Source: Escherichia coli
GTDB lineage: Bacteria; Pseudomonadota; Gammaproteobacteria; Enterobacterales; Enterobacteriaceae
Direction: 5' to 3' (one strand)
Length of the DNA: 64,000 nucleotides
Assembly (NCBI RefSeq): GCF_011045215.1
Contig: NZ_CP049201.1
The notes under the pieces are model-generated. The model saw only the letters and a list, made by a program, of their open reading frames with translations, had not been told where the DNA came from and did not search any database. Positions within the stretch are counted from its first letter, which is position 1; each line of letters starts with the position of its first letter. Shown one piece after another: positions 2,191-5,670 of this stretch. The translations under genes were made by a program, and so were the position numbers.

Positions 2191-3237
2191 TTAAAAATCT
2201 TTCGTTATTTCTCTGACCGTCTGATTAAAACGTTCCTCTTCCAGTTCCACGCCAATCGCCCTGCGTCCCAGCAACAGTGCCGCTTTTATCGTGGAACCTG
2301 ACCCCATAAAAAAATCTGCGACCAAATCGCCTGGACGGCTGCTGGCAGTAATTATCTGACGCAACATATCCGCCGGTTTTTCACAGGGATGTTTGCCCGG
2401 ATAATACTGCACGGGCTTGTGCGTCCAGACATCCGTATAAGGAACGACAGCCGATACGGAAAAATAACGCCGCAGTGATTTGTATTCCTCCAGCAGGCTG
2501 ACATATTGCCGGTTCAGTTCGCTGTATGTGCTGACCAGCTGGTGATGTGGCTGCTCCAGTTCACCGCGCTGGTGTTTTTCTGCCGCCACACGTGCAAACA
2601 GCGCCTGCAGTTTACTGTAATCGGCCTCATTCGGTAACTGCCACTGACTGGTACCAAACCAGTGCGAAACCATGTTTTTCTTTCCGGTGGCTTCAGCTAT
2701 CTGTTTTGACGTTATCCCCAGTGATTCACGCGCATCACGGAAGTAAGAAATCAGCGGGGCCATCACGTGCTGTTTAAGCTCGCGCCCCTTTGCCGCATAG
2801 CCGTCATTTTTTGGCTGGTATGGCCCCTGATAATGTTCAGCAAACAGAATGCGCTCTGTTGCCGGGAAATACGCCCGCAGGCTTTCCTTGTTGCACCCGT
2901 TCCAGCGTCCGGACGGCTTCGCCCAGATAATGTGGTTCAGCACATTAAAGCGCTCACGCATCATGATTTCGGTGTCAGATGCCAGGCGATGACCACAGAA
3001 CAGGTAAAGACTTCCGGCAGGCTTCAGTACCCGCCAGAACTGCGCCAGACATCGGTCCAGCCATTGCAGGTAATCATCGTCGCCCTTCCACTGGTTATCC
3101 CAGCCCTCGGGCTTCACTTTAAAGTATGGCGGGTCTGTGACTATCAGATCGACAGAGTTTTCCGGTAATGTCCGGATAAATTCCAGGCAATCCGCGTTGA
3201 TTAACTCACAACTGGATATTTTTACAGTATTAGCCAT
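2191..3237 (-). CDS. DNA methyltransferase (N6-adenine or N4-cytosine type), orphan
   Basis: 348 aa with DPPY motif near N-terminus (LIVTDPPYF) and FxGxG AdoMet motif near C-terminus (FFMGSGST); no nuclease recognised alongside. Confidence 0.85.
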   Translation of the reverse strand: MANTVKISSCELINADCLEFIRTLPENSVDLIVTDPPYFKVKPEGWDNQWKGDDDYLQWLDRCLAQFWRVLKPAGSLYLFCGHRLASDTEIMMRERFNVLNHIIWAKPSGRWNGCNKESLRAYFPATERILFAEHYQGPYQPKNDGYAAKGRELKQHVMAPLISYFRDARESLGITSKQIAEATGKKNMVSHWFGTSQWQLPNEADYSKLQALFARVAAEKHQRGELEQPHHQLVSTYSELNRQYVSLLEEYKSLRRYFSVSAVVPYTDVWTHKPVQYYPGKHPCEKPADMLRQIITASSRPGDLVADFFMGSGSTIKAALLLGRRAIGVELEEERFNQTVREITKDF

Positions 3238-3387
3238 AGATCAATAAGCACTTCTCTGATAGGCTCATACCGCTTTTGCGCAAAGCAGATGGGCCTGAGG
3301 TTTGCTTGTGACCCCAACGCATGAGCAGATGGCTGGCAGGTGCCGCTAACACCCACCAGCCGCCCATTACCACAAATTAAAAAGCCT

Positions 3388-3585
3388 TCACTGCGAAAGG
3401 CGTCTGTAACAACCGAACTGATAATCTGCCAGACCCGCCATAACAAGCTGGGTCAGTATTAACTGGCAGCGTTCGCGTGAAAGGTAAGTATTCTGCGCAA
3501 TTTCCCCGACGGTCGCCGGTTCGGTGACGCTTAATTCATTAAACACCACTCTGGCGGTTTTGGTCATATCCTGCTGTTTTAGCAT
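3388..3585 (-). CDS. small putative DNA-binding protein (winged-helix-like)
   Basis: Track ORF 3388..3807 trimmed to internal ATG 3583-3585 (AGGGA upstream); the N-terminal extension looks non-coding; residues TVGEIAQNTYLSRERCQLILTQL resemble an HTH recognition helix. Confidence 0.35.
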   Translation of the reverse strand: MLKQQDMTKTARVVFNELSVTEPATVGEIAQNTYLSRERCQLILTQLVMAGLADYQFGCYRRLSQ

Positions 3586-3902
3586 GTCTTTTTCCCTATT
3601 CCGGTTAACGTGACATACCAATAACTCTTGTCTGAAAAGCCAGCAAGCTGAAAAACCGGTATTCGTAACCACCAGCGCGTTTAACGTACTGCACCACTTT
3701 TCGGGCACAAAAAACCCGCCTAACGGCGAGCTTAAGCTGTGTAGCGAAGTAACCACTCTTAACACACTAAGCGAAAAAATGCGGACCGCGTTAGTGATTT
3801 TTAGCAAGTTTTGCTTTATTTTTCCTACGTACAGTAAAAATAAGAAATCAATTCCAGCCAGGCTGGCTGAGTTAACACAGGTCTTAGAATGAGGGAACTT
3901 CT

Positions 3903-4913
3903 TTGTACGAAATACATTACGACGTTGAGTCTGAACAGCAAGCTTTTGAATTACTTGAACGTTACCTAAACGGACAAGCTTTACCCGAAAAAATTAGTTT
4001 CAATGGTTGGCCAAGTCTAACCATCAGGTTGACTGGTGAAAAATTCAACAAATCACTCACACCTTCAGTTATGAAAGGATTTGTTGAAATGCAATCGCAA
4101 CTCAATAAGTCTTATGCGCTAGCAAAGTTCGGAACTCCTGATGTCCGCAGGCTAACAAAAGAAGAACTTGATGCTTTAGAAATTGAAGTTACAGTAGAGC
4201 AAGGTTCATCTCTTGTAGAGATTAACATTGATGGCTTCCTAAGCAAGCTTACGCACGAACTGGTAGGGAAAATGAACGCCACAGAGATTGTATTTACGGT
4301 TCTCGGTGCTGCCGTTATATGGGGCGGTGTAACCGTCTTCAAACGCTATCTGGATAACCGTAAAGATACTCGGTTGGCTGAAATTGCTAAAGAAGGCGAC
4401 AAAGAACACCTACGCGCAATGCAAGTGATGACACAGGAGGAAACAAAACGCCTCCAAATCATCTCAGAAATGGTGGCTAAAAAACCTCTACTCGACAATA
4501 TGGATCGAATGTCTTATGACGCTAAAACCACCATGGTTAAATCTTTCGTGCGTTCAGATTCAGCAGAAATTGACGGTGTCACAATAGATTCAGAAACGGC
4601 AAAAGAGCTAGTAACAAATGCTCGTCGACGCTCAGTTGAAATGAGAATAGACGGTATATACCGTATCGAAGAAGTGAATAATACCGACCCCGAAAGCTTC
4701 AAAGTTAAGGTTCGAAAGGTCGATTCTGATCAACGTTTGACCTGCGTTGTTCAGGATATATTCCTTGATGAATCAGGGAACAAAGAAGCCTTACAGCGAG
4801 CTGAATGGGAAAGAAAGCCTGTGCATTTAAGCATCAATGCCAAACACATTGATGGAGATATCAAGTCCGCCGTAATTTTACATGTGAAAGATGTTGAAGA
4901 TAAGCCCGAGTAA
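3903..4913 (+). CDS. hypothetical protein with one central hydrophobic segment; AT-rich cargo gene, family not recognised
   Basis: 1011-nt ORF opposite to the late genes; TTG start 6 nt after GAGGGA (in-frame TAG at 3885-3887 excludes an upstream ATG); 36 G+C in first 100 nt by hand count; hydrophobic stretch EIVFTVLGAAVIWGGVTVF. Confidence 0.7.
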   Translation: MYEIHYDVESEQQAFELLERYLNGQALPEKISFNGWPSLTIRLTGEKFNKSLTPSVMKGFVEMQSQLNKSYALAKFGTPDVRRLTKEELDALEIEVTVEQGSSLVEINIDGFLSKLTHELVGKMNATEIVFTVLGAAVIWGGVTVFKRYLDNRKDTRLAEIAKEGDKEHLRAMQVMTQEETKRLQIISEMVAKKPLLDNMDRMSYDAKTTMVKSFVRSDSAEIDGVTIDSETAKELVTNARRRSVEMRIDGIYRIEEVNNTDPESFKVKVRKVDSDQRLTCVVQDIFLDESGNKEALQRAEWERKPVHLSINAKHIDGDIKSAVILHVKDVEDKPE

Positions 4914-4928
4914 TCGGGCTGTCTGGTT

Positions 4929-5309
4929 TCAAGATTCCACTTCGGCATCCATTTCTAAACTTACATCCAACATACTCAGGCAACCGTCGATAAACCCTTC
5001 AGCCATCTGTATCTCTATACGTATCAATTTCTCATCCTTCCAACGCGCCTTTGCAATCTTGCGCTTGGATATCCTGTATAAATAATGTGCCACAAGAAGC
5101 GAATGCTCATAAGGCCTTTTTTGCTTTAAACAAGCAAGACAACCTTCAATAATTAATGCGTCACTATCTGAACAAGCCAGGCGTTTCTTACTGGTATAGG
5201 GCAGAAGTCCCTTAAACCCGGCAGCTATAGGTGAATAGTCCACACCCGAGCTATCACTAGCCGCCCATGCCCCCCAACGCTCAAGAACCATCTGAATATC
5301 ACGCGCCAT
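4929..5309 (-). CDS. late-gene antiterminator Q (QuuD/DLP12-type)
   Basis: MARDIQMVLERWGAWAA...IAAGFKGL...LEMD matches the remembered QuuD sequence; sits after rusA as in lambdoid nin-Q regions. Confidence 0.75.
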   Translation of the reverse strand: MARDIQMVLERWGAWAASDSSGVDYSPIAAGFKGLLPYTSKKRLACSDSDALIIEGCLACLKQKRPYEHSLLVAHYLYRISKRKIAKARWKDEKLIRIEIQMAEGFIDGCLSMLDVSLEMDAEVES

Positions 5310-5670
5310 CGTTACCACCTGTAATTTCGTAAATCTTCACACCCAGCCGACCACCAGGTACGCGCTGACCGCGCACAATATTAATTTCATCAAACTGCTC
5401 GTCGTCGATAAGCAACCCCGCATGTGTCAGTGCATCCAGTGGTGCTTTCAGAATATTGTCCAGGTCACGACGGCGCTTATCCGGTGGCTCTGCAGTAATT
5501 TTTATTGCCAGCCTTCCGGACAGATTTAATTTCAGCCGCTGCTGGCGAACAATGAGCGCCACATCACGGCGATAACGCTCACCGGCTTTTGATACAAAAT
5601 ATGTGCTGCCACGACGTCGCCAGTAGGTGTTTACCGTCGGCGGGTAAGGCAAAACAAACTCTATACGCAT
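5299..5670 (-). CDS. rusA: RusA-family Holliday junction resolvase
   Basis: 123 aa; PPTVNTYWRRRGSTY and RRRDLDN motifs match RusA. Confidence 0.85.
   Translation of the reverse strand: MRIEFVLPYPPTVNTYWRRRGSTYFVSKAGERYRRDVALIVRQQRLKLNLSGRLAIKITAEPPDKRRRDLDNILKAPLDALTHAGLLIDDEQFDEINIVRGQRVPGGRLGVKIYEITGGNDGA

What the first reader, a model, noticed from the sequence alone, without database searches (positions are those of the whole stretch)
3388..4913. AT-rich, TTG-initiated 336-aa gene with divergent small DNA-binding ORF in the Q-to-lysis cargo slot
Between Q and the lysis cassette, where lambdoid phages carry Stx toxins and other cargo, a 1011-nt ORF runs opposite to the late genes. It starts at TTG 6 nt after GAGGGA, and an in-frame TAG at 3885-3887 rules out an upstream ATG. 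It is visibly AT-rich (36 G+C in its first 100 nt by hand count, versus about half in the neighbouring methyltransferase and Q genes). The product has one central hydrophobic segment (EIVFTVLGAAVIWGGVTVF) between highly charged domains, and I recognise no family. A 65-codon winged-helix-like ORF sits divergently 317 bp away. Composition, weak start codon and position all point to a separately acquired module: a candidate abortive-infection or superinfection-exclusion factor with its own regulator, or alternatively a nuclease partner for the adjacent orphan methyltransferase.
Basis: partly seen in the sequence, partly recalled or inferred. Interest (0 to 1): 0.8.

Follow-up and report, generated by a model that had tools for sequence, protein, structure and literature searches.

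The report
Unknown prophage gene in defence hotspot
A real, strongly conserved 336-aa prophage gene of unknown function sits, reversed, in a swap-in slot between the late-gene activator Q and the late promoter, where related phages carry known anti-phage genes, so it is a good untested candidate for a new phage-exclusion protein.

Summary
In detail: a TTG-initiated, AT-poor-in-GC (41.5% GC) 336-aa ORF at 3903-4913(+), tail-to-tail with Q, with one central hydrophobic helix. It is a genuine gene (dN/dS 0.02-0.04) of family phrog_6191 (unknown function; about 1,400 50%-identity clusters across Proteobacteria), with no Pfam, NCBIfam, PADLOC or PDB-sequence match. Its predicted fold has an N-domain with no known relative, a hydrophobic helix and a C-terminal OB-like barrel. 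The small winged-helix ORF is not its regulator. It lies downstream of a Q-linked conserved element plus hairpin/T-run (inferred late promoter/qut/terminator), always travels with the methyltransferase, and is absent from about 70% of loci carrying the 336-aa gene. The gene lies upstream of that element, not in the Stx-type late-transcript slot. In 96 related phage loci this Q-to-element junction is empty (35), holds this gene (26) or holds other cargo (31), mostly reversed. Cargo includes PD-lambda-1/SNIPE (phiP27), PDC-S20, PDC-S42, NucC-like, HNH and PtuA/GajA-like proteins. Distant homologues sit directly downstream of CI repressors (the rexAB/bstA slot). Best reading: a lysogen-expressed, probably membrane-anchored single-protein exclusion or abortive-infection factor. 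Function is untested.

The parts
3903..4913 (+). 336-aa CDS, family phrog_6191. Predicted layout: N-terminal alpha/beta domain (aa 1-120), hydrophobic helix (aa 128-146), charged helices (aa 150-215), C-terminal OB-like beta-barrel (aa 245-330).
3891..3905 (+). Shine-Dalgarno GAGGGA (3891-3896) and TTG start (3903-3905). The TTG is conserved in 20 of 20 Q-linked relatives examined.
3810..3890 (+). Module-specific 5' region of the 336-aa gene. A weak by-eye promoter candidate is TTGCTT 3811-3816, 18-nt spacer, TAAAAA 3835-3840. A palindrome CCAGCCAGGCTGG lies at about 3853-3870. The consensus scan called no promoter here.
   Evidence: inference
4903..4920 (.). GC-rich hairpin AGCCCGAgtaaTCGGGCT overlapping the stop codon, in the 15-nt gap between the convergent 336-aa gene and Q. 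Terminator-like on the + strand.
4929..5318 (-). Antiterminator Q (phrog_79). It is tail-to-tail with the 336-aa gene, and 48 of 77 assessable IMG/VR loci show this same junction.
3753..3794 (-). Q-linked conserved element, read on the minus strand as CTAACGCGGTCCGCA (3794-3780), about 12 variable nt, then TGTGTTAAGAGTGGT (3767-3753). It lies 21-27 nt after the Q stop in 'empty' phages. Inferred late promoter / Q-utilisation site.
3709..3730 (-). Hairpin CTCGCC-gtta-GGCGGG followed by T6 on the minus strand. Inferred tR'-like terminator of the short leader transcript. Also present in phiP27.
   Evidence: read from sequence; not listed by the scan; the MFE fold is ambiguous
3388..3585 (-). 65-aa winged-helix-like ORF (phrog_331). 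It is the first ORF after the inferred late promoter/terminator and travels with the MTase, not with the 336-aa gene.
2191..3237 (-). Orphan-type DNA methyltransferase on the late strand (PADLOC MTase_II, E 2e-154). Context only; not a partner of the 336-aa gene.

Best explanation
The 336-aa gene is a self-contained accessory ('moron') cassette of about 1.1 kb (about 3810-4928). It is inserted in reverse orientation between the Q antiterminator gene and the Q-linked late promoter region of a lambdoid prophage. It is probably transcribed from its own weak promoter in the lysogen and translated inefficiently from a conserved TTG. During lytic growth, transcription running through Q would cross it antisense and should shut it off. 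The product is most likely anchored in, or associated with, the inner membrane by its single hydrophobic helix. The acidic N-domain would lie on one side, with a basic juxtamembrane stretch, a helical linker and an OB-like barrel on the cytoplasmic side. I infer that it protects the lysogen against other phages, either by blocking genome entry at the membrane (superinfection exclusion) or by permeabilising the membrane after sensing a phage component (abortive infection). Shown: gene reality, family size, domain layout of the predicted model, the slot's variability and its defence-rich alternative cargoes, and the CI-adjacent position of homologues. Inferred: promoter assignments, lysogenic expression, membrane insertion and topology, and the anti-phage function itself.
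For: The gene is real and constrained: dN/dS 0.02-0.04, and 1,407 clusters with E<=1e-3, all about 330-345 aa. Hotspot: among 96 IMG/VR loci with this Q type and its element, 35 are empty (element 21-27 nt after Q), 26 hold this gene and 31 hold other inserts of 395-2030 nt. The largest ORF is reversed in 14 of 17 insert classes examined. Six of ten alternative cargoes hit PADLOC models: PDC-S20 2.5e-168, PDC-S42 1e-32, NucC/PD-DExK 1e-30, Argonaute-associated REase 6e-29, PDC-M68A/HNH 2e-27, PtuA/GajA-like ATPase 1e-20. In phiP27 the gene between Q and the same small ORF is a PD-Lambda-1/SNIPE homologue (2e-89; SNIPE function in PMC13190303). Independent context: homologues of 31-67% identity lie immediately downstream of, and co-oriented with, CI-type repressors in L004, L055, L071, L072, L073, L085-87, L088 and L091. 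In a P2-like phage the gene sits on the repressor side (L092). This is the rexAB/bstA position, which is highly transcribed in lysogens (PMC8585504). The hydrophobic helix is conserved in place: Wimley-White sum <0 in 99% of 177 members, with K+R 1.9 before against 3.8 after. The TTG start is conserved 20/20. The gene is rare on plasmids (5 of 72,556) and prophage-linked.
Against: There is no functional data, and no similarity to any PADLOC v2 model in 11 family members tested. The hydrophobic helix is only borderline in many members (KD >=1.6 in 63%), and the AF2 model is compact (pTM 0.78), so the helix could be buried rather than membrane-spanning. An N-out topology would require export of a 125-aa domain without a signal peptide. 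The scan found no consensus promoter upstream of the gene. In Mu-like phages and in L082 the gene lies on the late strand next to lysis genes, which fits lysogen-only expression less well. Guilt by location is suggestive only, and three alternative cargoes also lack any defence annotation. The promoter/qut assignment of the conserved element is inferred, not demonstrated.
Confidence: 0.5

Rival explanations
1. A lysogenic-conversion or prophage-maintenance factor unrelated to phage defence, for example one that modulates host envelope physiology, stress tolerance or prophage stability. It would be expressed in the lysogen from the same slots.
For: The positions (CI-adjacent, or reversed next to Q) indicate lysogenic expression, not the purpose of the gene. 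There is no defence-model similarity. Three other cargoes of the slot are also unannotated.
Against: The family spans hosts with very different lifestyles: Enterobacterales, Haemophilus, Vibrio, Neisseria, Rhizobium, Caulobacter and Desulfonatronum. This argues for a phage-centred rather than a niche-specific function. The slot is dominated by defence-type cargo.
Confidence: 0.25
2. A phage lytic-cycle auxiliary protein, for example a lysis-timing or membrane-associated regulator, or a factor acting on the phage's own DNA via the OB-like domain.
For: In Mu-like contigs the gene lies immediately upstream of holin/SLT on the late strand (L089, L090). In L082 it lies between the MTase and a holin/lysozyme pair. 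It has a hydrophobic helix and an OB-like barrel.
Against: In the window and in 48 related loci it is antisense to the late and early-right transcripts and upstream of the late promoter element. In at least 8 lineages it is in the repressor operon. 35 of 96 related phages lack any insert at the junction, so it is dispensable.
Confidence: 0.12
3. Either a restriction nuclease partnered with the adjacent methyltransferase, or a toxin or effector controlled by the divergent 65-aa winged-helix protein.
For: Physical proximity in this window. The small protein has weak wHTH similarity.
Against: The small ORF plus MTase are present in only 13 of 44 assessable loci with the gene. They co-occur with each other 13/14, and also occur next to other cargoes (6 of 26) and next to SNIPE in phiP27. 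The small ORF lies downstream of the Q-linked element and hairpin on the late strand. No nuclease motif, Pfam or PADLOC nuclease hit was found in 39 and 11 members respectively. The few conserved residues (Q64, G101-S102-S103, R241, G251 and others) do not form a known catalytic set.
Confidence: 0.03

Closest known systems
PD-lambda-1 / SNIPE (membrane-bound GIY-YIG nuclease; Saxton et al. 2026, PMC13190303)
   Same: A homologue (phiP27 L22, PADLOC E 2e-89) occupies the equivalent place between Q and the small-ORF/MTase late genes. Both are single-gene, with a predicted single membrane helix and a cytoplasmic nucleic-acid-binding-type domain.
   Different: There is no sequence or model similarity. 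The 336-aa protein has no GIY-YIG or DUF4041 domain, and its hydrophobic helix is central, not N-terminal. In phiP27 the gene is on the same strand as Q; here it is reversed.
Lambda RexAB and Salmonella BTP1 BstA (abortive-infection genes downstream of cI; PMC8585504)
   Same: Homologues of the 336-aa protein sit directly downstream of, and co-oriented with, CI-type repressors in at least 8 phage lineages. Like these systems it is prophage-borne and dispensable.
   Different: No homology. RexAB is a two-protein system with a 4-TM RexB, and BstA has a KilA-N domain with no TM helix (the domain details are from the paper and from my own knowledge). In this window the gene is at the Q junction, not at cI.
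Single-protein membrane superinfection-exclusion factors (P22 SieA, T4 Imm, HK97 gp15) - recalled from knowledge, not tested here
   Same: Small to medium prophage- or phage-encoded proteins with one or a few membrane helices that act without enzymatic motifs.
   Different: No detectable similarity. PHROGs assigns the query only to an unknown-function family. The query is larger and carries two globular domains.
OB-fold domains (SilF, AB5-toxin B subunits, PriB/SSB/RecO)
Stx and other late-operon cargo of lambdoid phages
   Same: Accessory DNA located between Q and the lysis genes.
   Different: stx lies downstream of the late promoter/terminator on the late strand and depends on Q (phiP27 layout; established knowledge). 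This gene lies upstream of the element and on the opposite strand.

Membership tests
PHROG phrog_6191 (phage protein family, unknown function) | Full-length match to the family profile | tested here: met
   E 8.4e-143 over residues 3-334 of 336. Ten divergent relatives also match this family alone.
Known or candidate anti-phage systems (PADLOC-DB v2.0.0) | Significant match to any of the 5,027 models | tested here: not met
   No family at E<=0.1 for the query. Ten divergent members gave only isolated chance-level hits at E 0.003-0.01.
Restriction endonuclease partner of the adjacent MTase (type II R-M) | Nuclease catalytic motif or domain (PD-(D/E)xK, HNH, GIY-YIG) | tested here: not met
   No Pfam domain in any of 39 members and no PADLOC nuclease hit. 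The conserved residues form no such motif.
Restriction endonuclease partner of the adjacent MTase (type II R-M) | Obligate co-occurrence with the MTase | tested here: not met
   The MTase is present in 14 of 44 assessable loci with the gene and also occurs next to other cargo.
Effector plus dedicated divergent regulator (the 65-aa wHTH) | Regulator co-inherited with the effector | tested here: not met
   13 of 44 loci. The small ORF co-occurs with the MTase, and with SNIPE in phiP27.
Lysogen-expressed prophage 'moron' / defence-hotspot cargo | Occupies a site that is empty or holds alternative unrelated genes in related phages | tested here: met
   35 empty, 26 this gene, 31 other cargo and 4 short inserts among 96 loci.
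Lysogen-expressed prophage 'moron' / defence-hotspot cargo | Alternative cargoes are defence genes | tested here: met
   6 of 10 alternative cargoes, plus phiP27 L22, match PADLOC models.
Lysogen-expressed prophage 'moron' / defence-hotspot cargo | Transcribed in the lysogen | not testable with these tools
   There are no expression data. It is inferred from orientation and from the CI-operon position of homologues.
Membrane superinfection-exclusion / Abi effector | Inner-membrane localisation through a transmembrane helix | tested here: inconclusive
   There is one conserved hydrophobic segment: KD 1.89 here, >=1.6 in 63% of 177 members, Wimley-White <0 in 99%, with a positive-charge bias after it. 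No dedicated TM predictor or experiment was available, and the AF2 model is compact.
Membrane superinfection-exclusion / Abi effector | Reduces infection by heterologous phages | not testable with these tools
   Requires plaque and liquid-infection assays.
OB-fold superfamily (C-terminal domain) | Five-stranded closed beta-barrel superposable on OB folds | tested here: met
Stx-type late-operon cargo | Located downstream of pR'/tR' on the late strand | tested here: not met
   The gene is on the opposite strand and upstream of the Q-linked element and hairpin.

The most novel reading that the evidence does not exclude
phrog_6191 would be a new, widespread single-protein anti-phage family with a previously unseen N-terminal fold, a membrane helix and a cytoplasmic OB-like domain, acting at the inner membrane by blocking genome entry or by phage-triggered permeabilisation. 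The Q-to-late-promoter junction would be a dedicated defence hotspot whose reversed cargo is automatically silenced by read-through transcription on induction, giving the prophage built-in self-immunity.
Probability: 0.35. Interest if true: 0.7.

Novelty: new member of a known kind. Interest (0 to 1): 0.5.

Why it matters
If the protein excludes or aborts phages, it adds a widespread family (about 1,400 clusters at 50% identity, in lambdoid, P2-like and Mu-like prophages across Proteobacteria) with no relative among described defence systems, and with a domain of unknown fold. The analysis also maps a compact, easily recognised hotspot: the DNA between Q and a conserved 15-mer (CTAACGCGGTCCGCA). 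This hotspot can be mined for further candidates; three other cargo types there are also unannotated. For Stx-phage biology it clarifies that cargo upstream of the late promoter (this gene, and SNIPE in phiP27) is regulated differently from stx-type cargo downstream of it.

Tried and rejected
- Sequence searches on the 336-aa protein all gave nothing beyond phrog_6191: Pfam on the query and on 39 members, NCBIfam, PADLOC on the query and on 10 divergent members, and PDB sequence and profile searches.
- hhalign of the family against the PDC-S42-like cargo of the same slot gave probability 0.35, so the two are unrelated.
- Rfam searches of 3300-5400 found no known RNA. The MFE fold of the inferred leader is not significant (z -1.5), and the consensus scan did not list the hairpin at 3709-3730. 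The terminator call therefore rests on reading the sequence and on its conservation.
- Literature: there is no paper mentioning WP_000357056 or phrog_6191, and keyword searches for a Q-adjacent hotspot found nothing specific. Brenes & Laub 2025 (Cell Host Microbe), the most likely place for a prior report, is not held, so prior characterisation cannot be excluded.
- Contig look-ups for three very distant members returned contigs too short to be informative.
- The R-M partner and own-regulator ideas were rejected on co-occurrence.
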